Shown: positions 5,421-27,443, counted from the first letter of the stretch. The stretch is 63,981 nucleotides of DNA from a virus (IMGVR_UViG_3300014933_000403:1-63981), one strand, 5' to 3'. A program made the numbers and translations. Notes: generated from the sequence alone by a model not told the origin.

Positions 5421-6120
5421 TTTCCCACACCCGGTAAACCCAAAATCAAACCCAAAGATCGTAGCACTCATCGGTCTACATGGTGCAATAGGTTATGGCC
5501 TTTACTGGTCAGTAATTGAAATGCTGCTCGCAGAGCCTGCAGGTAGGCTACAGTTGAAGCCCTGGCTTTACAGTGCCCTGACATCACTCATGAATCTTCC
5601 TAAGGAATACGATATGGAAGGATTCGTTTCAGATTGTATCAACACGGTGGAGTTATTCGCTACCGATGGTGATTACTTCTGGGATGAAACTATACAACCG
5701 GCAGCATTCAAAAAGAAACCTGCTGCTAGGGTAGCCACCATAAAATCCAACCCGGAAATACAGAAGAAATGGGCTGAACTAGAGAAAATACTCCCTGCCA
5801 ATATCACAGAGCGTTGGGTAATCATTAAAACGTTTATCACAGATGAAAAGCCTGACTTCATAGAACCATACGCCACCGCATGGAACATCTTCGCATCCTC
5901 CCAAAAGCTTGCCCAGATAGAAGCCATCAACGAGACCAGGAAGAAGAAATTCGCCACCAGGATCAAGGATGAATTATTCAGCTTTTATGCTATCTTGGAG
6001 GTGATCAAAAAGGATGAATTCTACCGAGGGTTGAAACAGGGGCAAGATTGGAAGGTGACATGGGATCACATATTCGAGAATGAAATGAATTACCTCAAAA
6101 TACTTGAAAAAAGAAAATGA
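5410..6120 (+). CDS. Putative replication initiator (DUF4373-like N-terminal domain)
   Basis: PKIVALIGLHGAIGYGLYWSVIEML N-terminus; C-terminal WN..A....L...I...RKK...WKVTWDHIF..NYLKILE domain; upstream of the helicase. Confidence 0.65.
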   Translation: MESSFPHPVNPKSNPKIVALIGLHGAIGYGLYWSVIEMLLAEPAGRLQLKPWLYSALTSLMNLPKEYDMEGFVSDCINTVELFATDGDYFWDETIQPAAFKKKPAARVATIKSNPEIQKKWAELEKILPANITERWVIIKTFITDEKPDFIEPYATAWNIFASSQKLAQIEAINETRKKKFATRIKDELFSFYAILEVIKKDEFYRGLKQGQDWKVTWDHIFENEMNYLKILEKRK

Positions 6121-6649
6121 CCAAAGACATCGTACTAGTAGAGTTGTTCAGCGTCATTGGTGGCTTTCACTTAGGTCTCAAGAACGCAGGATTTAATATT
6201 ACCCATTGTCTCTTCTCAGAGATTGATGATCACGCTATTGCTAACTATAAATACAATTTCCCAGATGCAGAACACATTGGATCTGTTCTAGATGTAAGAG
6301 GAGAGGATATTAGAGAAATGTTTCCTGATTCAACCATCGTTGTTACCTTTGGTTTTCCTTGTCAGGATTTAAGTATAGCAGGTAAAAGGCTAGGTTTTAA
6401 AGGTGCTAGAAGTAGCCTTTTTTACCATGCTGCTAGGATTGTCAGACAAATTCAGGCAGATTTGTATATATGGGAAAACGTGCCAGGACTAATGTCTTCG
6501 AATGGCGGTGATGATATCAAGGCTGTTTTCGAGGAGATGTATTTAAGTGGGTATATTTTTGATTTTGAAGAATTAAATACTAACTGGGTTCTCCCTCAGA
6601 ACCGAAGTAGGATTTACTCGGTTGGATTCAACATAAAAAATCTACAAAA

Positions 6650-7276
6650 ATGTTTAATAGAAACAGATGGTCACCCGAAGAACTTGAATCATTACGTCAA
6701 AATTATACAAGGCGTTCTTCTAACGAAGTGTCCAGACTACTTAACAGAAGTCCCAAGTCAGTTCGATCAAAAGCGGAAAGACTTGGCATTAGATTACTGG
6801 AAAACAAGGGAGCAGGGTCAGTACCTTGGACAGAATCTGAAAGACAAATTCTTAGGGATAATACAAACTCTCCCATTAGAGAAATTGCAAAGCTTATACC
6901 TGCACATACAATCATTGCAATTAAAGCACAACGATCAAAACTTAAATACTTCCCAGACCAAACCCCAAAACATAATAGTAACGGATACAATGTCAGATAC
7001 GGAACAGATGAGTCTGGGAAAAGAAAGTCGTTCATGGTACATAGAGATGTTATCGAACAATCTATCGGCAGAAAACTACTTAGTAGTGAGCAGGTTCATC
7101 ATATTGATTTCAATAAACGAAACAACGAAGAACCAAACCTTTTCTTATGCAGAGATGCAGAGGAACATAGAACTATTCATCATACACTTAACTATCTTGT
7201 TTCCGAACTGCTGGGAAGAGGCGTTATATGGTTTGATAGAGAAGAAAAAAAATATAAACTATGCCCAGAAAAATAG
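6650..7276 (+). mobile_element. HNH homing endonuclease with N-terminal Myb/HTH-like repeats, nested in an alternate frame of the methyltransferase
   Basis: WSPEELESL and WTESERQIL repeats; HR.VIE..IGRKL...EQVHHIDFNKRNN...NLFLC...EH..IH. Confidence 0.85.
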
Positions 7277-7293
7277 AGTAAGCAAAAGAAACC

Positions 7294-7503
7294 TTGCATC
7301 AACTGATGATAGTAATGCCGTTCGATTTCCCTCTCCCAATGAAACGACAAATGAACCTGTCGGATATTCTGGAGCCGGATGCTTCGGAGGATTACTTCCT
7401 ATCACCGAAGACGATTGCGGGTCTCTTGAAGGGTCAAGCGCCTCCACAACTGTTAGAACAATCACAGCAGGAGGGAACTCAGCCGGGATGCATTCCAACA
7501 TGA
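7294..7503 (+). CDS. Putative EcoHK31I-type methyltransferase beta subunit in the third frame
   Basis: NLSDILEPDASEDYFLSPKTIAGLLK resembles the beta-subunit consensus as I recall it (SLSDILE...KYYLS...CAGIL). Confidence 0.6.
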   Translation: MHQLMIVMPFDFPLPMKRQMNLSDILEPDASEDYFLSPKTIAGLLKGQAPPQLLEQSQQEGTQPGCIPT

Positions 7504-8412
7504 CGCTGATCATTAATGACGAAGGTGAATTTAAAGATCGTGATATGGCAACTGCGATTGATTCCAATTACCATAAAGGAACAGACTCGCATCGGCAGAG
7601 GTCTATGGTTAAAATTGAAGCCACCACCTTATTCGACCAAGACACCATGCCTACCATGCCTACCATGCGTAAAGGCGGTGCGATGACGATGACCAAAAAG
7701 CACAACTGGGATGTTGTAAAAATAAAATCAGCAACAAAGGATGGTTATGAAGAAGCAACAGTAGGAGATTCTATAAATCTGTCCATCCCCAACTCTGCCA
7801 CCCGAAGGGGCAGAGTTGGGGATGGACAGGCGAACACATTGGATACTCAATCAAACCAGGCAGTGATTGTAGCAAGCAGAGGTCGCGGAGAAAATAATGA
7901 GCAGACGCTAGAACCGAACACCACGAACACCACGAACACCATTACAGGAGTGCAGAAAGACAATATGGTCATGCTTGACACCAGACAGAAAAGCCATGAT
8001 CAAAAATCTGGCAAATCGGGCATCAGAGAATACACAGATGAATCACCAACCATCAGTTCAACTATACAGAAGGATGTACCGAAAGTGATTTCTCAGGAAG
8101 ACAACATGATGCTGCGTGATGGCAGAGACAACAGGTCTTGTCTTAAATCTGGAAGACAGACTGAACTGGGAATGGAAGGCGTATCAATCAGAAGGCTGAC
8201 AGAGGTGGAGTGTGAAAGATTACAGGGATTCCCTGATAATTAGACTAAGTATGGCATCTATGACAGGATGACTAAATTCAACAGAGTTAAGTTTGATTTT
8301 GACTCTATATCTGGGATGAAAGAAATATCACGATCAAGCAGGTATAAATTATGTGGCAATGCAGTAAGCGTATGTATGCCAGAACTAATTGGAAGAAAAA
8401 TACTACAGCAGA

Positions 8413-10717: not shown

Positions 10718-10996
10718 ATGAGATTGATACTTTTTATTGTTAGTCTGTGCCTTATTTCTATTAGTGTCTGTTATTTACTTAAACCTGCAACCGTAGTTAC
10801 TACTGAGTCTCTCCCGGTAGATGCCGCTATTGCTATTTATAAAGCAGGGTATATGTCTGGACATTACAGAGGGGTGCTCCACCAGAATATTGACTCCACA
10901 TGGATAAAAGATTCTACCGAATTCTCAAACTATTTCCATTTACCCGCACCACCAAAGAAGGATACTATTAAACCAGGGTCTCTGAGAGCCATATGA
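10718..10996 (+). CDS. Membrane-anchored or exported small protein
   Basis: N-terminal hydrophobic helix; DST, DST and DTI motifs in the soluble part. Confidence 0.6.
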   Translation: MRLILFIVSLCLISISVCYLLKPATVVTTESLPVDAAIAIYKAGYMSGHYRGVLHQNIDSTWIKDSTEFSNYFHLPAPPKKDTIKPGSLRAI

Positions 10997-12420
10997 AAGT
11001 AAACCTGCCAGATATAACCATCATCTGTGTTGACTGTGTAAACTACGGTCAGGCAGTACGAGCAATAAAGAAATGCCTACAGGAAGTTACACCTGCTAAG
11101 GCGATTCTTATTACTAACATCCACTACCCAAACCCAGATGGCTTTGAGGTAGTGAATATACCCACCATCCGGACTAAGGAAGAATACAGTTACTTTATGA
11201 TCAAGGAACTGTATAAGCATTTCAACACATCCCATTGTCTGGTAATTCAGCATGATGGGTATATCCTTGATGGTAACAACTGGAGAGAGGAATTTTTGCA
11301 ATACGACTATATCGGTGCTCCATGGATTTATGAGCACAACCGGAACATAGGCAATGGCGGTTTTTCTTTAAGGTCATTAAATATGCAATCGATCTTGGGT
11401 CAAGACCCTAATATTACCATTACGCACCCAGAAGATCAGGTTATCGGAATAAACTTCCGCACCTATCTTGAAGAAAACTATGGGCACTGTTTCCCATCAG
11501 AAGAACTAGCAGACACGTTCTCATACGAATTAAAAGAACCTGCCTGTCCCACATTCGGGTTTCATGGGAAGTTCCATAAACCATACCAGCCAACAATAGT
11601 GATCAAACGTTCTGGTGCATTAGGAGATATTGTAGCGATTGAGCCGGTACTTCAGTATTACCACAAGAAAGGATACCACGTAGCAATAGACTGCCCCCCC
11701 GCAGCCTATATGCTATTCCACAACCACGCATACCCTATTAAACACGTAAGCCATATTGATCACGGAAGAATCAAATGCGAATTCATTGATCTTGATATGA
11801 CCTATGAGAACAAACCTAAGCAGCTGCATCTGCAAAGCTACTTTGAAGCTTGCGAAATCACAGATTATAAACTCACCAACCCAAGACTATACTTCCCAAT
11901 CACCCCCCAGACAAAGCTGTTTAAGAAATACGCAGTGCTGCACATGGATAAAAGGGATCAGCCTGGCAGGAATGTTTATGGGGTAGCATGGCATACAATC
12001 GTTAAGGAATTGAATATCCTAGGCTATGATGTGATCCAGGTAGGCAACCGCGACTCAGAACTCACATCGGCACTCCATATGCAGACCCCATCCGTTAATA
12101 TGCTCATGTGGCTTATTGCCGGTGCCGATCTGTTCATAGGCATTGATTCCGGACCATCATGTATTGCGGTGGCTTTTAATATCCCATCGATCATATTCTT
12201 TGGGCAGGTGGCACCAGAGTATATCCATCCGGACATGGCCAATGTACACATTGTATCAAACGGTATCGTATGCGATAAACCAAGGTGTTGGCATGAGACA
12301 GTAACCACTACCGGTCAGGATTGCTATATCGACAAACAACTCCCACCCTGCGTACAGTTCACAACAGAACAGGTGATTGATGCTATTTATGATGTTTACG
12401 AAATAATTAATAACCAATGA
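10993..12420 (+). CDS. Two-domain glycosyltransferase (DUF5672-like GT-A domain plus GT9/heptosyltransferase-like domain)
   Basis: LVIQHDG, YDYIGAPW, GNGGFSLRS, PED, FGFH; then GALGD and FIGIDSGPSCIAVAF. Confidence 0.85.
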   Translation: MKVNLPDITIICVDCVNYGQAVRAIKKCLQEVTPAKAILITNIHYPNPDGFEVVNIPTIRTKEEYSYFMIKELYKHFNTSHCLVIQHDGYILDGNNWREEFLQYDYIGAPWIYEHNRNIGNGGFSLRSLNMQSILGQDPNITITHPEDQVIGINFRTYLEENYGHCFPSEELADTFSYELKEPACPTFGFHGKFHKPYQPTIVIKRSGALGDIVAIEPVLQYYHKKGYHVAIDCPPAAYMLFHNHAYPIKHVSHIDHGRIKCEFIDLDMTYENKPKQLHLQSYFEACEITDYKLTNPRLYFPITPQTKLFKKYAVLHMDKRDQPGRNVYGVAWHTIVKELNILGYDVIQVGNRDSELTSALHMQTPSVNMLMWLIAGADLFIGIDSGPSCIAVAFNIPSIIFFGQVAPEYIHPDMANVHIVSNGIVCDKPRCWHETVTTTGQDCYIDKQLPPCVQFTTEQVIDAIYDVYEIINNQ

Positions 12421-12575
12421 TAACACTACTAGTAATTTTCGCGGTAACCTATGTAAGATGCGTTTGGCTGTTTCTTAACAATAAAGAGACTGCTACATCT
12501 TGCGCTTTGTTACGTTTTATGTCAATTGTTCTTGCTTTTGTGGCCTGTGTGTTAATAGAAAAATATTTACCATAA
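12417..12575 (+). CDS. Small two-helix membrane protein, 52 aa, not in the ORF track
   Basis: MITLLVIFAVTYVRCVWLFL...FMSIVLAFVACVLIEKYLP; ATGA and TAATG coupling on both sides. Confidence 0.55.
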   Translation: MITLLVIFAVTYVRCVWLFLNNKETATSCALLRFMSIVLAFVACVLIEKYLP

Positions 12576-13327
12576 TGATATACGACTGCTTTACTTACAA
12601 CGGAGAAAGAGACCTACTGAAGATCAGATGCGAGGAAATGAAAGGATTAGATGTGCAGCACATCCTAGTTGAATCAACACACACCTTTACTGGTATCCCA
12701 AAGGAGATCACTTTTAACGAGTTCGACCGTGAGTTCATCCACTTCCCAATCAGGCAGATAATCGTTGATGATATGCCCAACACCGGTAATCCATGGGATA
12801 ATGAGAAACACCAGAGGAACGCAATCATCCGTGGGCTAATCACCGTACCAGACGATGCAATATGCATTATCTCTGATGTGGATGAGATTCCAAGAGCATC
12901 TGCATTACTAGCCATCACAGAACTCGGAGAAGGTATCACAGCCCTCAGGATGGATAAGTTCGGCTATTACCTCAACTGTCTGGAGGGAGTGCAGAGTTGG
13001 GAACGAGCCAGGATGTGCGAAGTAGGCTATGTGAAATCATTCTCCCCAGACTATGTACGTAATTCAGGGTATGAGCATGAGATCCTGAATGCCGGTTGGC
13101 ATTTCTCATGGATGGGTGGTCCAGAAGTAATGAAGAGAAAGCTTGACTCATTTTCTCACCAGGAGTGCAACACGCAAAAACTCAGGGATGCATTGGAGCA
13201 TAAATACCAGACAGGAGAATCTCTCTGGGGTGATGACCATTGGCTTTTTGTTAAGGTAGATGAAGCGTTCCCAGAGTATGTATTCCGTCACCAAAATGTA
13301 TTATCCCACCTAATAAAACCAATATAA
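12575..13327 (+). CDS. GT17-family (beta-1,4-GlcNAc transferase-like) glycosyltransferase
   Basis: IYDCF.YNGE, VES..TFTG.PK, E.HQRN, ISDVDEIP, GWHFSW, K..SFSHQE. Confidence 0.85.
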   Translation: MIYDCFTYNGERDLLKIRCEEMKGLDVQHILVESTHTFTGIPKEITFNEFDREFIHFPIRQIIVDDMPNTGNPWDNEKHQRNAIIRGLITVPDDAICIISDVDEIPRASALLAITELGEGITALRMDKFGYYLNCLEGVQSWERARMCEVGYVKSFSPDYVRNSGYEHEILNAGWHFSWMGGPEVMKRKLDSFSHQECNTQKLRDALEHKYQTGESLWGDDHWLFVKVDEAFPEYVFRHQNVLSHLIKPI

Positions 13328-13959
13328 TGCCATTATCACTTAATGAGATTGGACTTTCCCATGGAACAGACAAAGCATCCAATGGCCACAACTACCTGAA
13401 GTACTACGAGCAGCATTTTGCTTCAATGAGGTATAAACCGGTAAGCCTTCTGGAGATAGGAATCTGGGAAGGTGGCTCCTTAAAGATGTGGGAGGAGTAT
13501 TTCCCTGATGGGAAAATATTCGGTATTGATATCGATGAGAAGATTCAATATGATAGCACCAGAATCAAAACATTAGTTGCCGACCAGGGTGACTCAAACC
13601 AACTTCGTGCTATCCTAGGCGATGATACCGATCTGGATATTGTAATTGATGACGGTTCTCATGAGGGCCTACACCAACTGATATCTTTCAATACAATCTT
13701 CCCTATACTGAAGCCGGGCGCATTGTACTGCATTGAAGACCTCCTGTGTACTTACGATAGCAGATGGAATGATCCGATTAACTTCCGCGATCGGCTCAAG
13801 CAGATGATTGAGGAGGTGAATATGTCTGGCAACATATCCAACGACCATATCTGTGCCAACAAAGAAGAAGCCGTTACAAAATACGGTGGCAGTTACTGGG
13901 ATAAACACATCGAATGGATATTCGTTTCATGTGGATTGGTGATCATTAAAAAAATGTAA
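13327..13959 (+). CDS. Class I SAM-dependent methyltransferase, sugar O-methyltransferase-like
   Basis: GTDK...H.Y..YYE, LLEIG...GGSL.MW, GIDI, DQ, IVIDDGSH, GALYCIEDL. Confidence 0.85.
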   Translation: MPLSLNEIGLSHGTDKASNGHNYLKYYEQHFASMRYKPVSLLEIGIWEGGSLKMWEEYFPDGKIFGIDIDEKIQYDSTRIKTLVADQGDSNQLRAILGDDTDLDIVIDDGSHEGLHQLISFNTIFPILKPGALYCIEDLLCTYDSRWNDPINFRDRLKQMIEEVNMSGNISNDHICANKEEAVTKYGGSYWDKHIEWIFVSCGLVIIKKM

Positions 13960-14693
13960 TGGAATACATAACGCTAGCGACCGTAAACTGGAATCAAAGA
14001 CCAGCTCTGGAACTCATGCTGAAAAGCTATGTGAAATATCACTATGCCGGGGAGCCACTCAAGATCCTGGTATACGATAACGACTCCTCCGATGATTCGG
14101 TTAAGTGGATGCTTGATAACAACATCCCATTCACCAAGTCCCCCACCAATATAGGTCATGAGAATGCGTTAAACGTGATATATAAGCAGACCAGAACCAA
14201 ATATCTCCTTGTAGTGGACACAGATATCGAATTTAAGGTGGATACACATGAGCATTATCTTCCCCAGCTTGACCCGTTCGTGAACATAGCAGCGGGTGAA
14301 TACATCGATTGGGACCGCATGGGCGATAGTAAAATAAAACCCAGACTCAGCCCATGGTTCTTTTTATTCGACATCAAGAAGATGAAAGAACTAGGCGTGA
14401 CCTGTTTCCGTGATCCGAACTGTACAGATTGGAGTTATGACGTAGGGTCATGGCTCACCGAGAAGATCATCGCATCCGGCTACACCTTCGTGAACATCCC
14501 CAGGCTGCCATCCGATCAGGACAGAGACCCTGTAGGTATGAAGTACAAAACCCATGATCACTTCACCAGGGTATCCTGGAATCTGGAGAACCATATGGAC
14601 AGACATGACGAGGTAATGATGAGAAGGGAGCATATCCTGTCCCGCTTGGAAGAATACAAAGACATTGTTTTACGCGATAAATTCATGTTATGA
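13959..14693 (+). CDS. GT2/GT-A glycosyltransferase
   Basis: VYDNDSSD, NIGH, LVVDTD (DxD), YDVGS. Confidence 0.8.
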   Translation: MEYITLATVNWNQRPALELMLKSYVKYHYAGEPLKILVYDNDSSDDSVKWMLDNNIPFTKSPTNIGHENALNVIYKQTRTKYLLVVDTDIEFKVDTHEHYLPQLDPFVNIAAGEYIDWDRMGDSKIKPRLSPWFFLFDIKKMKELGVTCFRDPNCTDWSYDVGSWLTEKIIASGYTFVNIPRLPSDQDRDPVGMKYKTHDHFTRVSWNLENHMDRHDEVMMRREHILSRLEEYKDIVLRDKFML

Positions 14694-15448
14694 ACAAACA
14701 AACACTAGGAGGAACACTATTCGTCCGTGATGGTTTGAAATACGATTACTGCTTTATGGAAGCCATTAAGTGTTTACTGTCTCTGTGCGATCAGGTTGTT
14801 GTTTTGGATGCTGGTAGTGAAGATGGTACCAGAGAGCATCTCATTATAATGGCTGAAAAGAATCCTAAGATAAAGCTTATTTTTACCGAATATGAAGAAT
14901 GGGATGAACAGAAGGGTCCAGAGAAGCTTTCCTATTTCACCAACAAAGCCATCCAACATAATGAATGCGATTGGAACTTCAACCTACAGGCAGATGAGAT
15001 CATCCACGAGAAATCGTTTGGCACCATCAGGAAAGCAATAGAAGACCCGCTAGCCGATGCTTTTCTGTGCAGGCGTATAAACCTGTGGAAAGACCCTTAC
15101 CACTATTTAAACGTCCCACAGGAGCGATTACCATGCAGCGACTATGTGATTCGTCTAGCCAGGGCAGATAAGAAATCTGTGGGTGATGGGGAAAGCCTTG
15201 ACTCTCTGGCTGACATGAGGTTTATGGAAGACATCCGAATATACCATATGGGGTTCGTCAGGAAGAAGGAAGTGCATCCGGATAAGATTCGTCATATGCA
15301 GGCAGGAGTGTTTGGTATCAACCCAGACCCGAAGCTGGAAGGCATGACCACCTTTGATCCATACAAATGGTTCTCAGATGAAGACCTTCTCTCAATCACA
15401 GAGGAGTTGCCAATATTTATTCAGAAATGGGCTAGCACAAGGCCGTAA
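14690..15448 (+). CDS. GT2-family glycosyltransferase
   Basis: VVVLDAGSEDGT, LQADE, IYHMGFVR. Confidence 0.85.
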   Translation: MNKQTLGGTLFVRDGLKYDYCFMEAIKCLLSLCDQVVVLDAGSEDGTREHLIIMAEKNPKIKLIFTEYEEWDEQKGPEKLSYFTNKAIQHNECDWNFNLQADEIIHEKSFGTIRKAIEDPLADAFLCRRINLWKDPYHYLNVPQERLPCSDYVIRLARADKKSVGDGESLDSLADMRFMEDIRIYHMGFVRKKEVHPDKIRHMQAGVFGINPDPKLEGMTTFDPYKWFSDEDLLSITEELPIFIQKWASTRP

Positions 15449-15457
15449 ATAATTACC

Positions 15458-16390
15458 ATGGAAGCAAAAAATAAGATCATAACCATCAAACACACGGTCA
15501 ATTCGGGCGATTTAATTGCAAATCTAGCATCTATCAAACACGTTTGCGAATCTATGGGAAGGAAGGCTTTGATATATCAACAGTTGGATATGGAAGCTAT
15601 CTATTATCCTGGGGCTACTCATCCAGTAACAGATGACAAAGGGAAGATGGTCACCATGAACAAAAAGCAGTTCGATCTTCTCCAACCATTGGTCTTGGTG
15701 CAACCGTATGTAGCAGGATTCGCTCCGTTTGAAGGTCAGGAGGTAATGGTGGATCTTGGGAAGATGCGTGGTGAGATGAATATCAATATGCCATACATGG
15801 ACATCAGGCTCTGGCCTTCCCTCATCTGGCCAGATATGTGTCCAGACATCTCTCAGCCATGGTTGGAAGGTGCAAATGTGATACTTGGTATTGGGAGGGG
15901 TATAAAGATAAATTACGACAAAACAGTTACAGAAGAAACTCCTACGGGACCACATACTATTCTTGCAGGGTCTTCAGTAACTAAATACGGGATACCTATT
16001 GAAGACAAGGTGATCATCAACTTCACCGATCGCTATCGGAACAGCAACATCCATTACTACTGGCTGAAGGAATACCAGGATCATATCGTTTTTGCCGGAA
16101 CAGCAGGCGAGCATAAATCCTTCTGCGATAAATGGAAGCTGGACATACCGTATCTAGTAGTAGATAATTTCCTTCACCTAGCTGAAGCCATCAGACATTG
16201 CCGTTTTTTCATGGGCAACCAAAGTATGTGCTGGGGAATAGCAGATGCTATGAAGGTTACCCCAAGAATATTAGAGTACTGCACATGGGTACCAAACTGC
16301 ACATGGGGCATCGGTCCAGATAGCTATGCTTACCTGTATCAGCACAATGCGGAGTTTTATTTTAAGAAACTTTTTAACCAAACGAAATGA
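15458..16390 (+). CDS. GT9-like (GT-B) glycosyltransferase
   Basis: SGDLI at the N-terminus; FLHLAEAIRHCRFFMGNQSMCWGIADAM at the C-terminus. Confidence 0.65.
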   Translation: MEAKNKIITIKHTVNSGDLIANLASIKHVCESMGRKALIYQQLDMEAIYYPGATHPVTDDKGKMVTMNKKQFDLLQPLVLVQPYVAGFAPFEGQEVMVDLGKMRGEMNINMPYMDIRLWPSLIWPDMCPDISQPWLEGANVILGIGRGIKINYDKTVTEETPTGPHTILAGSSVTKYGIPIEDKVIINFTDRYRNSNIHYYWLKEYQDHIVFAGTAGEHKSFCDKWKLDIPYLVVDNFLHLAEAIRHCRFFMGNQSMCWGIADAMKVTPRILEYCTWVPNCTWGIGPDSYAYLYQHNAEFYFKKLFNQTK

Positions 16391-16394
16391 TCAT

Positions 16395-16715
16395 ATGGAA
16401 CTCCAAGACTACCTCCACTTCTACCTAGGCTGCCAGGTTGTAACCAATCTAGGCACCGGCACACTACTACAGGTATCAGACCTATCTCTAAATGAACCAC
16501 CATATAAGGTAGGATTCGATTTTGATATACCAGAAGGAGCGGAGGTAGAATGGTGTTCTCCAATCCTAAAGCCTGCTACTTTGTTACGTAACACTCCTGA
16601 TGGGGAAATATGCCTCAACCAAAAAGGTGTTGGTGGCAGGGTGAAATGGATGTGCGATAATGGCTATGATGCATTTGGATTAATAGAAGCAGAACTAGCT
16701 GTCCCTAATGAGTAA
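16395..16715 (+). CDS. Hypothetical phage protein
   Basis: YLHFYLGC...PILKP...DAFGLIE pattern; start refined. Confidence 0.6.
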   Translation: MELQDYLHFYLGCQVVTNLGTGTLLQVSDLSLNEPPYKVGFDFDIPEGAEVEWCSPILKPATLLRNTPDGEICLNQKGVGGRVKWMCDNGYDAFGLIEAELAVPNE

Positions 16716-23915: not shown

Positions 23916-24178
23916 TTCTTATACCCATATTTACTGATCACCTTTATGATCTTCCCCAGGTTCTCCTCGCTGATCTGTCCCTTACTGATGCCGGTAGATA
24001 GATTCCCTTGGTTCACTCCTGCCTCTTGGCAAATAGCGGATATCTTTATCTGTTGGTTATCTCTGAACCATTTTAGCACAGATGTGTTGGTATCTGCCCA
24101 GTTTTTCACATGGCTCATATCCACGGTAGCTTTACCGTCTGTTAACCTTACTGATAGTATTTTAGTTCCTTTGCCCAT
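23912..24178 (-). CDS. HTH (Cro/XRE-like) regulator
   Basis: ISAICQEAGVNQGNLSTGISKG; first gene of a divergent promoter. Confidence 0.6.
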   Translation of the reverse strand: MGKGTKILSVRLTDGKATVDMSHVKNWADTNTSVLKWFRDNQQIKISAICQEAGVNQGNLSTGISKGQISEENLGKIIKVISKYGYKK

Positions 24179-24195
24179 GGTTGTTGTTTATTTGT

Positions 24196-24243
24196 CAAAA
24201 GTAAAATAATTATTTGGGAATACAAATAATATTTATAGCTTTG
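24196..24243. promoter_or_regulatory. Overlapping divergent Bacteroidota promoters
   Basis: Plus strand TTTG(24213)-N19-TAGCTTTG(24236); minus strand TTTG(24226)-N19-TACTTTTG(24203); both match TTTG-N19-21-TAnnTTTG exactly. Confidence 0.85.
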
Positions 24244-24261
24244 AGTTCTAAATAAAAAAAT

Positions 24262-24612
24262 ATGCATAACTACAAAAACGTACAAACAGGGCAGGTGATC
24301 TCTGCCACAGACTTTATGTCTTTAACTAAAAGCCGTAATGAATGGGCTGTATCTGATGAGCCGGTTAACGCAAAGGTCGAAACTATTGTTTCCCCCGCCA
24401 CACCTGCGGCAGAATTTCCTGAGTTCCCAGTTAATGAAGACCTGAACCATGATCAACCTACTATTGATCATGTTGTAACAGAAGATGATTTGAAAGATAA
24501 CCCATCACTGGTTGAAGAAGGTGTGCAGGAAGGAGAAACGATTCAGGTACCGGCTCCGGTTATTGAGGATGGTATTCCTGGTACCGAGCCAGAAGTGGAT
24601 CCCGCAGCATAA
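24262..24612 (+). CDS. Highly acidic hypothetical protein
   Basis: E/D/P-rich; HVVTEDDLKDNPSLVEEGVQEGETIQVP is LysM-like in pattern. Confidence 0.65.
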   Translation: MHNYKNVQTGQVISATDFMSLTKSRNEWAVSDEPVNAKVETIVSPATPAAEFPEFPVNEDLNHDQPTIDHVVTEDDLKDNPSLVEEGVQEGETIQVPAPVIEDGIPGTEPEVDPAA

Positions 24613-24746
24613 AGATAATCCGCTATTGTACGTTGGGGGTATATAAGTGAGCGTACTAACACCTGCCTGAGTAGGGTTTATTTGATCTCGGTGGTTAAAT
24701 ATGTCCTGGGTTATGAGTAAAATCAGAAGGCTCAGGCGGGTGAAAC

Positions 24747-24816
24747 GGGGAGGTAACTCAGGGGCAGAGTAGCAGCTTAGGCTTGTTAGTCGGTGGTTCG
24801 AATCCACCCCTCTCCA
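24747..24816 (+). tRNA. Atypical tRNA with a UAG (Leu) anticodon and an alanine-type acceptor stem
   Basis: GGGGAGG/CCTCTCC-A acceptor, ACTC/GAGT D-stem, CT-TAG-GC loop, GGTGG-TTCGAAT-CCACC T-arm; 70 nt, short variable loop, no encoded CCA. Confidence 0.75.
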
Positions 24817-24817
24817 C

Positions 24818-25054
24818 ATGACAGAAGAACAGCAGGCTAACTGGGATGTAATCCTGTAGTACTTAAAGGAGGAAAGATTTAAGATTGTTCCTAAGATATA
24901 TGATTCTCTGGAAGGTATTGGATGGATAGGTGCTCATCCGGACCGGATTACTATTGATCATACTACCAGGGCATCATATGTTCTTGGATTGCTTTCTAGA
25001 TTAGCAGACGATCTTACAGAGCGTAGGCATCGTGTTCAGTCTAGAATCAGGTAG
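24818..25054 (+). pseudogene. 78-codon ORF with an internal TAG at 24857
   Basis: MTEEQQANWDVIL*YLKEERFKIVPK...QSRIR. Confidence 0.4.
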
Positions 25055-25412
25055 TTCTGTTTTGAGATGGGTGACTAAGTTGGATAACATTGTAAAGTCA
25101 GTGCTGCCAACAGTTATTAAAGAGATGAATTAACAATACCCACTCTATCAAAACAGGATAATGATTATGTATCCTTTATAGGATGTAAAATTAATGTATG
25201 CTGACGGTACTAAGTATTGGCATCTTGTGATACTAAAAGTGAACTTGGTATTGAATCCAAGAGTATCGTAACAGGTTTTAAACATTAATTTTGACTTTAA
25301 ACATAATTAAACAGGATAATAACGGTTGTGGTATGTTGAGTTGTGGGATAAAAACCTGTTAAACAATCTTTACCACACCGTTATTTATTTAACAAATTAA
25401 AAATGAAAAAGT

Positions 25413-25631
25413 ATGAGTGCTGAAAAAGGTAAATGTATGGCGTGTGGTACTCAAATAGGGTACAATTCTATTGGATATTGTCATAAGTGTGCTTCTGATT
25501 ATTGGGCAAAACATGATGAAGAATACCCGTTTATAGTAAGATTTGGCGATGACCAACAAGAATTTAAAACAGAACAAGAAGCAGAAGATTTTGTTCGTGA
25601 ATTAAGAAGAGTATTTGTTGAAAGAAAATAA
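25413..25631 (+). CDS. Small zinc-ribbon protein
   Basis: CMAC...CHKC. Confidence 0.6.
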   Translation: MSAEKGKCMACGTQIGYNSIGYCHKCASDYWAKHDEEYPFIVRFGDDQQEFKTEQEAEDFVRELRRVFVERK

Positions 25632-25664
25632 CCCCTTAACCCTCTTCCCTTAAATAAAAAAGTT

Positions 25665-25952
25665 ATGATAAATATTTGCGATAGCTGCGGTGGAGTAATT
25701 GGTAGAGATTGTTTTAATCCTATTGAGTGCGCTCAAATTACCGCTAATCTAAATAATTATCAGGAACAACCCGTATTTGATAATAAGTTTAAAGAAGCGG
25801 TTGAATTATTGAGAAGTTTGGCTGATATACAAAACGGTGCGCCACTTGTTCGGGATGAGAAAGAATGGAATAATATTATGGAAGATGTTTACTCTTTCCT
25901 AAATGAATATGAGCCGTTAATAAAAACCCAATCTGAACAAAATATATTCTAA
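25665..25952 (+). CDS. Small Cys-rich hypothetical protein
   Basis: CDSCGGVIGRDCFNPIEC. Confidence 0.6.
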   Translation: MINICDSCGGVIGRDCFNPIECAQITANLNNYQEQPVFDNKFKEAVELLRSLADIQNGAPLVRDEKEWNNIMEDVYSFLNEYEPLIKTQSEQNIF

Positions 25953-25991
25953 CCCTCTCCCCTTAATGGGGGGGAATAATATTTAATAAGT

Positions 25992-26303
25992 ATGAGTAAG
26001 ATGATGGATGAAATGACAATTAATGAAATTGCAGAAATATTAAACATTGCAATGGATGATGGCGAATATCACACCCCTTATGCATCAGATATAAACTTAC
26101 ATGAGTTGTCAAATTCAAAAGCTGCCTATGGTTGGTGTAATATATCTAAGCATAATACTTACCATGATAAAGAAGTGTGGTTCAATATAAATTCAAACAC
26201 GGTTAAAATTTGGGAAAATAAGTATGTAAAAGGTAAAGCAGATTTAAACCTATACCGACCTATATACAATATTAAAAAATTATCTAACCTACTTAACCCC
26301 TAA
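25992..26303 (+). CDS. Hypothetical protein
   Basis: Member of the AT-rich tandem small-ORF array. Confidence 0.6.
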   Translation: MSKMMDEMTINEIAEILNIAMDDGEYHTPYASDINLHELSNSKAAYGWCNISKHNTYHDKEVWFNINSNTVKIWENKYVKGKADLNLYRPIYNIKKLSNLLNP

Positions 26304-26894: not shown

Positions 26895-27443
26895 ATGAAC
26901 AAAACACAAGAAATATTAAATAAGAAAGTAGCAATAGACTTCCCTGATGGTAATGGGAATATATTGAAAGTGTATAAAGAAGATGCAGTATTGTCTATGC
27001 TAGACGAGATGGTGTCTTCCTACACAACCGCAAAATCTACTGTACTCCAGATGATCCCATTCGAACTCAAAGGAGATCTTGACCGTTTTCAGGACGCTTA
27101 CCTACCGACATTGGTTGAAGCTGGCGTTAAGTATGAGACGGCTGTTACGATCATATCATCTGTATGGTTGTTCGTCAATAATGTATATTCCGGCTCTGAC
27201 GGTATGCCAACCGATATTGCCTTTGAAAAAAGACTTTCCTCACTGATCAATATGCATTCAAAGGAGAACGACAGTAACACCCCTGATTTCATCCTGGCTA
27301 AGTTTATATCTGATTGCCTGGAGAACTTTAATAAGGCTACGGTGGCTAGAGATAACTGGCAAGGCCGAGGCACCAAGCAAGACATAGAACCGATAGCGAT
27401 ACCAGGTTTTGAAGAAGCCTTATCCAAACTACCGATAGGCTAG
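26895..27443 (+). CDS. Hypothetical multidomain protein
   Basis: C-terminal LIN.HS.EN.SNTPDFILA...CL..F......RD.W domain. Confidence 0.6.
   Translation: MNKTQEILNKKVAIDFPDGNGNILKVYKEDAVLSMLDEMVSSYTTAKSTVLQMIPFELKGDLDRFQDAYLPTLVEAGVKYETAVTIISSVWLFVNNVYSGSDGMPTDIAFEKRLSSLINMHSKENDSNTPDFILAKFISDCLENFNKATVARDNWQGRGTKQDIEPIAIPGFEEALSKLPIG

What the first reader, a model, noticed from the sequence alone, without database searches (positions are those of the whole stretch)
24747..24816. tRNA with alanine identity elements but a leucine (UAG) anticodon
Seen: G1:C72, G2:C71, G3:U70, G4:C69 and A73; anticodon loop CU-UAG-GC; short variable loop; anticodon arm slightly short with two G-U pairs. Known: G3:U70 with A73 specifies AlaRS, which ignores the anticodon, and bacterial tRNA-Leu has a long variable arm. 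Inference: if charged and used, it would insert Ala at CUA/CUG codons; alternatively it is a non-ribosomal Ala donor, a decoy for anticodon nucleases, or a degenerate tRNA.
Basis: partly seen in the sequence, partly recalled or inferred. Interest (0 to 1): 0.75.

Follow-up and report, generated by a model that had tools for sequence, protein, structure and literature searches.

The report
Orphan phage tRNA: alanine end, leucine anticodon
A single tRNA gene in an uncultured phage joins the charging end of an alanine tRNA to a leucine-reading anticodon on a weak anticodon arm; it has no relatives and the phage still reads those codons as leucine, so it is probably a stray hybrid gene.

Summary
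ARAGORN and Rfam (48 bits) both call a tRNA at 24747-24816/7 with G1:C72, G2:C71, G3:U70, G4:C69, A73, anticodon loop CUUAGGC and a 4-5 nt variable loop. The anticodon stem has two G-U pairs and lacks either nucleotide 26 or one base pair.

The full alanine acceptor set is not a chance feature. It occurs in 0 of 205 non-Ala phage or viral tRNAs surveyed, against 10 of 12 tRNA-Ala. G3:U70 alone occurs in 5 of 205. The body is generic type I and not leucine-like: it scores 25.2 bits on a Leu model where true Leu tRNAs score 66 or more.

Nothing shows that the gene is used.
- The phage's CTA/CTG codons align to Leu, not Ala, in its two relatives, and their usage is ordinary.
- The closest complete relative has no tRNA.
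- Pattern scans of viral, metagenome and genome collections found no homologue.
- The canonical anticodon hairpin is unstable (+0.5 kcal/mol).

Best reading: an orphan hybrid tRNA, probably alanine-chargeable but a poor decoder. Efficient mistranslation, leucine charging, or a role for the upper half alone remain open.

The parts
24747..24816 (+). tRNA gene, 70 nt to the discriminator, no CCA encoded (the next bases are CAT)
   Evidence: ARAGORN 24747-24817 Leu(tag). Rfam RF00005, 48.0 bits.
24747..24753 (+). Acceptor stem 5' strand GGGGAGG. G3 is at 24749.
   Evidence: Read. It pairs 7/7 with 24809-24815.
24756..24770 (+). D arm ACUC-AGGGGCA-GAGU: a 4-bp stem, a 7-nt loop with G18G19, and an A10:U25 pair
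   Evidence: The 5' motif GGGGANNTARCTCAGGGGYAGAGY was hit 12 times in viral contigs. Of the 7 hits that are complete tRNAs, 6 are tRNA-Ala(TGC).
24771..24787 (+). Anticodon arm AGCAG-CUUAGGC-UUGUU. The anticodon UAG is at 24778-24780, with U33, G37, C32 and C38. There are two G-U pairs, and either nucleotide 26 or one base pair is missing.
   Evidence: ARAGORN drawing and Rfam alignment with one deletion on each stem strand. The canonical hairpin is +0.5 kcal/mol, against -3.0 for a collapsed tetraloop form.
24788..24791 (+). Short variable loop AGUC (UAGUC in the Rfam register)
24792..24808 (+). T arm GGUGG-UUCGAAU-CCACC
24809..24816 (+). Acceptor 3' strand CCUCUCC (U70 at 24813) and discriminator A73 (24816)
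   Evidence: The last 22 nt (24795-24816) are identical to the 3' end of tRNA-Tyr(GTA) genes in 9 of the 10 viral contigs hit. Those genes have A3:U70.
24662..24675 (+). Terminator-like hairpin followed by a T-rich tail, 70 nt upstream of the tRNA (context only)
   Evidence: Consensus scan. Not evidence of function.
24459..24961 (.). Segment bounded by an exact 13-nt direct repeat, TACTATTGATCAT, at 24459-24471 and 24949-24961. It contains the tRNA (context; significance unknown).

Best explanation
This is a real, singleton phage tRNA gene of hybrid identity. It joins a generic type-I body and an alanine-type acceptor end to a UAG (Leu CUA/CUG) anticodon on a substandard anticodon arm. It lies in a variable block of small genes in a roughly 64-72 kb phage. 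No integrase was found, and the genes lack Shine-Dalgarno sites, which suggests a Bacteroidota-type host.

Shown here: the gene, its cloverleaf, its acceptor set, its unlikeness to tRNA-Leu, its lack of relatives, and the standard meaning of the phage's CUA/CUG codons.

Inferred mechanism: the intact upper half (acceptor, T and D arms) should let host enzymes trim the transcript and add CCA. Host AlaRS should then charge it with alanine through G3:U70 and A73. The anticodon arm lacks nucleotide 26 or one pair, has two G-U pairs, and its loop can close on itself, so it is probably a poor ribosomal decoder. At most it would cause low-level Leu-to-Ala errors at CUA/CUG.

The most likely origin is a recently arisen or recently acquired tRNA copy that is drifting. 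It is an evolutionary by-product of the fast turnover of phage tRNA genes, not a recoding device.
For: - Real tRNA with the full alanine acceptor set.
- The full set occurs in 0 of 205 non-Ala phage or viral tRNAs and in 10 of 12 tRNA-Ala.
- Not Leu-like. On Leu model R2 it scores 25.2 bits and ranks 112 of 128 matches. The model's own tRNA-Leu score 66.0-91.3 and one held-out tRNA-Leu scores 74.8. The Leu-type U8-G9-G10 and D arm are absent.
- No reassignment. Against G001, window CTA aligns to Leu in 73 of 123 positions and CTG in 185 of 278, the same range as CTT, CTC, TTA and TTG (59-66%). Ala is not among the six commonest partners (at most 4 and 7 positions). GCN codons align to Ala at 46-53%.
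- No codon-usage adjustment. CTA+CTG make up 375 of 18066 codons in the window, 425 of 19971 in G001 and 430 of 20857 in G002. They occur in 65 of 66 ORFs.
- Orphan status. G001, the closest relative (complete, with terminal repeats, 87% identity in the capsid-like protein), has no tRNA by ARAGORN or Rfam and no remnant. The tRNA lies between two genes conserved with G001, in a stretch that differs.
- No homologue found: 0 hits for three tRNA-derived patterns in viral contigs and 0 for an acceptor, anticodon-loop and T-loop pattern in genomes of 185,579 species.
- Weak anticodon arm: the canonical hairpin is +0.5 kcal/mol against -3.0 for the alternative; the cloverleaf is -22.3 against an MFE of -27.6 kcal/mol; the Rfam posterior is low only in this arm.
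- G3:U70 arises sporadically in phage tRNAs. The tRNA-Asn of Vibrio phage PG07 has G3:U70, while the similar tRNA-Asn of phage Ceto has G3:C70.
- Published basis for alanine charging: G3:U70 is sufficient for AlaRS (PMC11415595 passages), and allo-tRNAs with G3:U70 inserted Ala in E. coli (PMC5389517 section 15).
Against: - The upper half is flawless, and the anticodon loop has the features expected of a working CUN reader (U33, G37). A long-decayed pseudogene would not look like this.
- The gene has the orientation of the flanking small genes on the + strand.
- With no relatives, neither decay nor conservation can be measured.
- Charging and decoding are inferred from rules worked out in E. 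coli and other models, not from this phage's unknown host.
- tRNA(UAG) is a common kind of phage tRNA, so the anticodon may have been selected, not arisen by accident.
Confidence: 0.45

Rival explanations
1. Upper-half function. The RNA works as an alanine-accepting tRNA mimic and the anticodon arm does not matter. It might act as a sponge or decoy for a host factor or a tRNA-targeting defence, as a tmRNA-like or AlaRS-directed RNA, or as a processing signal for the phage transcript. The UAG 'anticodon' would then be incidental.
For: - Only the anticodon arm is defective. The acceptor, D and T arms and all elbow nucleotides are intact.
- The more distant relative G002 also carries a tRNA-like gene whose anticodon arm is shortened (Rfam 40.4 bits, not called by ARAGORN).
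- Unchecked notes from this scan report alanine-type tRNA mimics without anticodon arms in several other phages. These are leads only.
- Phage tRNAs have been proposed to counter anticodon nucleases (PMC10264068 passages).
Against: - The G002 element has C3:G70, so it is not alanine-type.
- No homologue shows the upper half conserved while the arm varies.
- A full 7-nt loop with U33 and G37 is more than a mimic would need.
- No partner gene (AlaRS core or the tRNA_SAD editing-type domain) is found in the phage.
Confidence: 0.2
2. Working leucine tRNA. It belongs with the short-variable-arm tRNA-Leu(UAG) genes that some phages carry. Host LeuRS charges it through A73, and it supplies CUA/CUG decoding. 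G3:U70 is either tolerated or makes it dual-charged.
For: - Short-arm tRNA-Leu exist in phages and viral contigs: PG07 Leu(tag) and Leu(taa) at 77 nt and Csp-D17 Leu(taa) at 78 nt; L093, L095 and L102 Leu(tag) at 75-77 nt.
- L093, L095 and L102 start GGA and end UCC-A, so they have A3:U70, one transition from G3:U70.
- The phage uses 144 CTA and 231 CTG codons, and they mean Leu.
Against: - Of the six short-arm Leu tRNAs, the three aligned keep U8-G9-G10 and a Leu-type D arm, as does L095 by my reading. L093 and L102 keep the large Leu-type D loop but have U8-A9. The window tRNA has neither feature.
- As I number it, it has G15 and C48 where the review gives A15-U48 as essential.
- It scores 25.2 bits on the Leu model, below almost every non-Leu tRNA tested.
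- The complete alanine set should make AlaRS a strong competitor.
Confidence: 0.13
3. Deliberate mistranslator. An efficiently used Ala-tRNA(UAG) puts alanine at CUA/CUG across the proteome during infection, as a phage strategy such as damaging host proteins or diversifying its own.
For: - The complete alanine set combined with a well-formed 7-nt anticodon loop.
- Precedents for encoded mistranslation: tRNA-Ala(CAG) in the CUG-Ala yeast clade, tRNAProX in Streptomyces, and allo-tRNAs (PMC11415595 sections 16-18; PMC5389517).
- Allo-tRNAs with Leu anticodons were toxic when induced in E. coli.
Against: - The phage's own 375 CTA/CTG codons mean Leu and are neither avoided nor shifted compared with relatives that lack the tRNA.
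- The anticodon arm is weak.
- The gene is absent from the closest relative and has no homologue anywhere searched.
Confidence: 0.12
4. Attachment-site relic. The 3' half is a copy of a host tRNA-Tyr 3' end carried as a phage attachment site, and the rest resembles a tRNA only by accident.
For: - The last 22 nt are identical to tRNA-Tyr(GTA) genes in 9 of the 10 viral contigs hit.
- The tenth hit (L013) is a bare 3' tRNA fragment of the kind seen at attachment sites.
Against: - A complete cloverleaf, with a matching 5' acceptor strand and D arm, scores 48 bits.
- No integrase or resolvase domain is found in the record, though the record is only 89% complete.
- The same T arm occurs in bacterial tRNAs of five isotypes.
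Confidence: 0.03

Closest known systems
tRNA-Ala(CAG) of the 'CUG-Ala' yeast clade (Pachysolen, Nakazawaea, Peterozyma); PMC11415595 section 16, read
   Same: An alanine-identity tRNA with an anticodon from the CUN leucine box. This is possible because AlaRS ignores the anticodon.
   Different: - Those are eukaryotic nuclear genes, derived from tRNA-Ala and conserved across a clade.
- They come with a real change in the meaning of the codon.
- Here the gene is in a phage, has no relatives, its anticodon is UAG and not CAG, and the genome's CUA/CUG positions are Leu.
Allo-tRNAs with G3:U70 and non-alanine anticodons (Mukai et al. 2017, PMC5389517; passages and section 15)
   Same: Natural tRNAs from bacteria and metagenomes that combine G3:U70 with non-Ala anticodons. 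Allo-tRNAs also occur with Leu-box anticodons. Amber versions inserted mainly Ala or Ser in E. coli.
   Different: Allo-tRNAs have an 8/4 or 9/3 acceptor/T-stem build and a long variable arm. This tRNA has the canonical 7/5 build and a short variable loop.
Canonical phage tRNA-Ala(UGC), for example in Caulobacter phage CcrColossus and Vibrio phage Ceto
   Same: - The acceptor pairs GGGGA/UCUCC and A73.
- A 7-nt D loop, AGGGGYA.
- 53 of 70 positions identical to two such genes, and 73% by blastn.
   Different: - The anticodon is UAG, not UGC.
- The anticodon stem is one layer shorter.
- A10:U25 replaces G10:C25.
- On the Ala model it scores 61.6 bits, against 83-99 for the members, which is inside the range of generic type-I tRNAs.
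Short-variable-arm tRNA-Leu(UAG) of phages (Vibrio phage PG07; viral contigs L093, L095, L102)
   Same: The UAG anticodon with U33 and G37, a short variable loop, A73, and carriage by a phage.
   Different: Those keep a Leu-type D arm or D loop and have U3:A70 or A3:U70. This one has a type-I D arm and G3:U70.
Dual-identity tRNAProX of Streptomyces and Kitasatospora (PMC11415595 section 17 passages)
   Same: A bacterial-world tRNA whose acceptor identity and anticodon disagree.
   Different: Those have proline identity, odd A33 and A15-A48 features, a dedicated ProRSx partner, and are conserved across species. None of this applies here (for the lack of a partner synthetase).

Membership tests
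tRNA (Rfam RF00005) | Cloverleaf and conserved core scoring above the gathering score | tested here: met
   48.0 bits against 29. ARAGORN also calls it.
tRNA-Ala (AlaRS substrate) | G3:U70 wobble pair, with A73 and G2:C71 | tested here: met
   Read directly. The full set is found in 10 of 12 phage tRNA-Ala and 0 of 205 non-Ala tRNAs.
tRNA-Ala (AlaRS substrate) | Actual aminoacylation with alanine | not testable with these tools
   Inferred from published sufficiency of G3:U70
tRNA-Ala (decoding family) | Anticodon NGC that reads GCN codons | tested here: not met
   The anticodon is UAG.
tRNA-Ala (isotype-style covariance model of 8 phage or viral tRNA-Ala) | A score in the range of the members | tested here: inconclusive
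   It scores 61.6 bits. Members score 83.3-98.9, one odd held-out tRNA-Ala scores 47.7, and other type-I tRNAs reach 74.1.
Bacterial or phage tRNA-Leu | Anticodon in a Leu box, and discriminator A73 | tested here: met
   UAG and A73
Bacterial or phage tRNA-Leu | Leu-type core: U8-G9-G10, a 3-bp D stem with a large D loop, and an A15-U48 pair | tested here: not met
   The window has U8-A9-A10, a 4-bp D stem, a 7-nt loop and, as I number it, G15 and C48. All 16 aligned tRNA-Leu have T8 and G9. The A15-U48 requirement is from PMC9976931.
Bacterial or phage tRNA-Leu | Long variable arm | tested here: not met
   The variable loop is 4-5 nt. Six phage or viral tRNA-Leu also lack the long arm, so this feature is not strictly defining in phages.
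Bacterial or phage tRNA-Leu | A score on a covariance model of 16 phage or viral tRNA-Leu | tested here: not met
   It scores 25.2 bits, rank 112 of 128. The model's own members score 66.0-91.3 and one held-out tRNA-Leu scores 74.8.
Sense-codon reassignment (CUA/CUG read as Ala) | The genome's CTA/CTG codons fall on alanine columns of homologues | tested here: not met
   They fall on Leu in 59% and 67% of positions against G001 and 46% and 52% against G002. Ala is not among the six commonest partners.
Allo-tRNA | An 8/4 or 9/3 acceptor/T-stem arrangement | tested here: not met
   The arrangement is 7/5.
Phage attachment site in a tRNA gene | An integrase in the phage, with only a partial tRNA copy | tested here: not met
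   No PF00589 or PF00239 match, and the cloverleaf is complete. The record is only 89% complete.

The most novel reading that the evidence does not exclude
The gene is a full-length member of a wider, undescribed habit of phages: carrying alanine-chargeable tRNA look-alikes whose anticodon arm is free to vary or to vanish. Selection would act on the alanine-accepting upper half, for example to engage AlaRS, a tmRNA-like pathway or a host defence. A bolder alternative is a working Ala-tRNA(UAG) that a phage uses to mistranslate Leu codons on purpose.
Probability: 0.2. Interest if true: 0.8.

Novelty: new member of a known kind. Interest (0 to 1): 0.45.

Why it matters
Natural tRNAs whose charging identity and anticodon disagree are rare and closely studied, because they show how the genetic code can bend. 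Known cases include the CUG-clade yeasts, tRNAProX, allo-tRNAs and human variants.

I found no phage example in print. The mistranslation review has 0 mentions of 'phage', and so does the tRNA identity review. Full-text searches listed no paper on such a phage tRNA. Supplementary tables of PMC5389517 and PMC10264068 could not be opened and may list some.

If this tRNA were shown to be charged with alanine and used, it would be a phage-borne Leu-to-Ala mistranslator. As it stands it is one orphan gene.

The survey here also gives a baseline for judging similar finds. G3:U70 alone occurs in about 2% of non-Ala phage tRNAs. The full alanine acceptor set did not occur in any of them.

Tried and rejected
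**Homologue hunts that found nothing**
- Megablast of 24000-26000 against 50,697 phage records: no match.
- Viral-contig patterns for anticodon loop plus T arm, the 5' half, and D arm plus CUUAGG: 0 hits each.
- Genome-contig pattern for acceptor, CUUAGG and T loop: 0 hits.
- Metagenome scan with the capsid-like protein: only the same two relatives, plus three distant loci (28% identity) that have no tRNA.
- The scan's own index by sequence: nothing.

**Donor hunt**
- blastn of the tRNA against 401 Bacteroidota genomes matched in 62. Most hits cover only the 3' half or so, in Tyr, Ser, Gly and Phe tRNAs. None is Leu or Ala and none is close.
- The D-arm plus T-arm pattern in genomes gave 12 tRNAs: 5 Val, 3 Ile, 2 Arg, 1 Met and 1 Asn. 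The body is therefore not diagnostic of any isotype.

**Expression**
- No RNA holder was listed among the sequencing runs. The four runs, all from one study, are DNA-type contigs that cover only parts of the stretch. They show presence only.
- The promoter scan found no sigma-70-like site between the upstream hairpin and the tRNA, but that scan does not cover other promoter types.

**Other ideas set aside**
- Attachment site: no integrase or resolvase.
- A phage-encoded AlaRS core or tRNA_SAD editing-type domain: none.
- Functions of neighbouring small ORFs: no Pfam or PHROG match above threshold.
- Local codon signal: CTA/CTG occur in 65 of 66 ORFs with no telling cluster.
- An alternative register that would give a different anticodon does not pair (my reading).

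**Literature**
- Two searches returned 0 papers, probably because 'G3 U70' did not match the way the term is printed.

Full report
**1. What is there**

The window is a whole IMG/VR virus record of 63,981 bp, linear, estimated 89% complete. ARAGORN finds exactly one tRNA in it, at 24747-24817 on the + strand, and calls it Leu with anticodon tag at position 32. Rfam's tRNA model matches 24747-24816 at 48.0 bits against a gathering score of 29 (the same hit in a local search).

From the cloverleaf reads as follows.
- Acceptor GGGGAGG/CCUCUCC, with G3(24749):U70(24813) as its only wobble pair.
- U8 and A9.
- D arm ACUC-AGGGGCA-GAGU.
- Anticodon arm AGCAG-CUUAGGC-UUGUU.
- Variable loop AGUC.
- T arm GGUGG-UUCGAAU-CCACC.
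- Discriminator A73. No CCA is encoded.

The anticodon arm is the one abnormal part. ARAGORN draws five pairs (A-U, G-U, C-G, A-U, G-U) starting directly after the D stem, so nucleotide 26 is missing. Rfam instead keeps A26 and deletes one position on each strand of the stem.

Taken alone, the canonical 7-nt-loop hairpin costs +0.5 kcal/mol. A collapsed form, in which G31-C38 and C32-G37 close a UUAG tetraloop, gives -3.0 kcal/mol. The full cloverleaf is -22.3 kcal/mol against an MFE of -27.6.

**2. Is the alanine set more than chance?**

These were tRNA clusters of five GenBank phages plus IMG/VR loci brought in by pattern hits. The window was left out, identical sequences were counted once, 4 oddly named calls were dropped, and 6 calls with fewer than 6 acceptor pairs were dropped.
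- Of 205 tRNAs with non-Ala anticodons, 5 have G3:U70: PG07 Asn and Trp, Csp-D17 Arg-UCU, Erwinia phage pEp_SNUABM_01 Arg-ACG, and a 95-nt element in L097.
- None of the 205 has G1:C72, G2:C71, G3:U70, G4:C69 and A73 together.
- Of 12 tRNA-Ala, 11 have G3:U70 and 10 have the full set (a smaller first count is).

A lone G3:U70 in a phage tRNA is therefore unremarkable, at about 2%. A G:U pair with the G on the 5' strand is no rarer at position 3 than at positions 2, 4 or 5. The whole alanine-type acceptor end on a non-Ala anticodon was unique to the window in this sample.

The sample is not random. The loci were reached by similarity to this tRNA or by patterns taken from it, although most tRNAs in them were bystanders.

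**3. What kind of tRNA body is it?**

Against the GenBank phage collection, the best near-full-length matches are as follows.
- tRNA-Asn(GUU) of Vibrio phage PG07: 75.7% identity, E 4e-3. This tRNA itself has G3:U70, but with G73.
- tRNA-Ala(UGC) of Caulobacter phages: 73% identity, E 0.2.

In a global comparison with 197 distinct tRNAs, the top hits were Asn, Ala, Ala, Phe and Asn. None of the 20 tRNA-Leu reached the top 25.

The 5' motif GGGGANNTARCTCAGGGGYAGAGY was hit 12 times in IMG/VR. Six hits are tRNA-Ala(TGC); by their contig lengths, three of these are the Caulobacter phage genomes again. One hit is an odd tRNA with G3:C70. Five are fragments or interrupted genes.

I built two covariance models as a stand-in for isotype models.
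- On the Ala model (8 sequences) the window tRNA scores 61.6 bits and ranks 27 of 122 matches. Members score 83-99, and ordinary type-I tRNAs of other isotypes reach 74.
- On the Leu model (16 sequences, three of them short-armed) it scores 25.2 bits and ranks 112 of 128. The model's own members score 66.0-91.3 and one held-out Leu scores 74.8.

All 16 aligned tRNA-Leu have U8-G9, and nearly all have G10. The window tRNA has U8-A9-A10.

The body is a generic type-I tRNA. Its alanine character lies in the acceptor end and partly in the D arm, and it is clearly not a leucine tRNA.

The D-arm and T-arm combination occurs in bacterial tRNAs of five isotypes. A search of 401 Bacteroidota genomes gave mostly 3'-half matches to Tyr, Ser, Gly and Phe tRNAs. 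No donor was identified.

The last 22 nt are identical to the 3' end of tRNA-Tyr(GTA) genes in 9 of the 10 viral contigs hit. Those genes have A3:U70.

**4. Is the tRNA used? Tests on the phage's own genes**

Only two relatives exist in the viral and metagenome collections.
- G001: 72,030 bp, terminal repeats, 87% identity in the capsid-like protein.
- G002: 72,043 bp, 65% identity in the same protein.

I aligned window ORFs to these genomes with tblastn and asked what lies opposite each window codon.
- Against G001, CTA pairs with Leu in 73 of 123 positions and CTG in 185 of 278. CTT, CTC, TTA and TTG pair with Leu at 59-66%.
- Ala is not among the six commonest partners of CTA or CTG.
- GCN codons pair with Ala at 46-53%.
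- G002 gives the same picture, at 46% and 52% Leu.

One caveat is that tblastn scored these positions as Leu. That bias is the same for all six Leu codons.

CTA+CTG make up 375 of 18,066 codons in the window, 425 of 19,971 in G001 and 430 of 20,857 in G002. They occur in 65 of 66 ORFs. The phage has not reassigned these codons, does not avoid them, and has not shifted its usage compared with relatives that lack the tRNA.

**5. Orphan status and setting**

G001 has no tRNA at all by ARAGORN or by Rfam, and no remnant of this one. G002 has a tRNA-Asp and, elsewhere in its genome, a tRNA-like gene with a shortened anticodon arm and C3:G70.

The window tRNA lies between two genes shared with G001 (24262-24612 and 26895-27443), in a stretch of small ORFs that differs between the two phages. 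None of those small ORFs matches a family.

An exact 13-nt direct repeat at 24459-24471 and 24949-24961 brackets the tRNA. I could not tell whether it marks an insertion.

No integrase, resolvase, AlaRS core or tRNA_SAD editing-type domain is encoded in the record.

Only 2 of 48 ORFs have a Shine-Dalgarno-like core upstream, and the upstream regions are A-rich. From what I recall of Bacteroidota translation starts, this suggests a Bacteroidota host. That is an inference, not a result.

Contigs in two runs of one study carry the tRNA with no differences. This confirms the sequence but says nothing about expression.

**6. How it most likely works**

The gene and its features are shown. What follows is inferred.
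- The intact acceptor, T and D arms should make the transcript a substrate for RNase P, 3' trimming and CCA addition.
- G3:U70 with A73 is described as sufficient for AlaRS (PMC11415595 passages).
- Natural allo-tRNAs with G3:U70 and foreign anticodons inserted mainly Ala or Ser in E. coli once given an amber anticodon (PMC5389517 section 15).

I therefore expect charging with alanine.

Leucine charging cannot be excluded. E. coli LeuRS relies on A73 and core tertiary contacts, not on the anticodon or the long arm (PMC9976931 passages), and phages do carry short-armed tRNA-Leu. But the Leu-type core is missing here.

On the ribosome, an Ala-tRNA(UAG) would put Ala at CUA/CUG. Those codons mean Leu throughout the phage, and the anticodon arm is one layer short and weak. 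The most economical reading is a marginal decoder: a recently arisen or recently acquired tRNA copy that is drifting, not a recoding device. I give this 0.45.

The rivals are:
- a function of the upper half alone, as mimic, decoy or processing signal (0.20);
- a true Leu or dual-charged tRNA (0.13);
- a deliberate mistranslator (0.12);
- an attachment-site relic (0.03).

**7. Comparison with what is known, and novelty**

In function it would resemble tRNA-Ala(CAG) of the CUG-Ala yeasts (PMC11415595 section 16) and the G3:U70 allo-tRNAs. It belongs to neither group. There is no reassignment, and it has a 7/5 build, not 8/4 or 9/3.

Human tRNA-Ala anticodon variants (PMC12084884) and yeast tRNA-Ala anticodon variants (bioRxiv 10.1101/2022.11.23.517754) are further parallels. 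I saw these only as search listings and abstract openings.

I found no printed description of a phage tRNA with the alanine set and a Leu anticodon.
- Searches listed none.
- The two reviews have 0 mentions of 'phage'.
- Supplementary tables could not be opened.

Unchecked notes of this scan report similar alanine-type oddities in other phages, including a 70-nt one with an Arg CCU anticodon and several units with no anticodon arm. These are leads that hint at a class. None was tested here, and none shares sequence with this gene.

**Verdict:** a real and unusual gene. It is a new member of the known kind 'tRNA with mismatched identity', with no evidence of use. Interest 0.45.

Noticed in passing
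L004 1501-1568 (-), which is G002:C1:69313-69380: The distant relative phage G002 carries a 68-nt tRNA-like gene (Rfam tRNA, 40.4 bits) that ARAGORN does not call. Its acceptor, D and T arms are intact, but the anticodon region is about 4 nt too short to form a normal arm. It has C3:G70.
   Followed up: partly
L030 20001-20077 and 24699-24771 (Vibrio phage vB_VpS_PG07); L033 15893-15967 (Cronobacter phage Csp-D17); L034 29476-29551 (Erwinia phage pEp_SNUABM_01): Cultured tRNA-rich phages carry tRNAs with G3:U70 and non-Ala anticodons: Asn-GUU and Trp-CCA in PG07, Arg-UCU (with A73) in Csp-D17, and Arg-ACG in the Erwinia phage. The similar tRNA-Asn of phage Ceto has G3:C70.
   Followed up: partly
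L030 23550-23626 and 23661-23737; L033 15809-15886; L093 11667-11741; L095 1055-1130; L102 6104-6180: Six phage or viral tRNA-Leu (UAG or UAA) are only 75-78 nt long with short variable loops. They keep a Leu-type D arm or D loop. L093, L095 and L102 have A3:U70.
   Followed up: partly
L043 2234-2308 (-) and 2354-2428 (-): Two adjacent tRNAs in a 190-kb viral contig have enlarged anticodon-loop regions. For the first, ARAGORN reads a four-base anticodon (gcaa) on an alanine-like 5' half with G3:C70.
   Followed up: no
L038 1783-1861 and 1989-2113 (the start of the second unit also recurs at L040 3329): An odd 77-nt tRNA-like unit with a GGGGAAG...CUUCUCC-A end (G3:U70, A73) gives a weak tmRNA match. 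Downstream is an alanine-like tRNA interrupted by about 59 nt in the anticodon region (Rfam tRNA, 32.9 bits).
   Followed up: no
L035 3092-3200 (the same 5' motif also in L036 and L046): A weak match to the Y-RNA-like family YrlA (32.3 bits against a gathering score of 69) includes the tRNA-Ala-like 5' motif. These 'half tRNAs' may be part of a Y-RNA-like module in viral contigs.
   Followed up: no
L097 12375-12469 and L099 5089-5183 (-): An identical 95-nt element occurs in two viral contigs. ARAGORN calls it tRNA-Ile(gat). It has a GGGAGGG...CCCUUCC-A end (G3:U70, A73) and a long internal insertion.
   Followed up: no
window 24459-24471 and 24949-24961: An exact 13-nt direct repeat, TACTATTGATCAT, lies 490 nt apart and brackets the tRNA. 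Both copies read T-I-D-H in an open frame. It may be a recombination scar or chance.
   Followed up: partly
window, upstream of 48 ORF starts: Only 2 of 48 ORFs have a Shine-Dalgarno-like core at -20 to -5, and the upstream regions are A-rich. This suggests a Bacteroidota-type host.
   Followed up: partly
window 10993-15448: A run of sugar- and methyl-transfer genes: DUF5672 plus a GT9-like domain, GT17, a methyltransferase-like ORF, and two GT2-like ORFs. It follows the DnaB-like helicase gene. A 708-aa DNA methyltransferase lies at 6117-8243.
   Followed up: no
window 16326-16715: This 129-codon ORF uses CTA for 8 of its 17 Leu codons, the highest CTA density in the phage. It overlaps its neighbours at both ends and may not be a real gene.
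   Followed up: no
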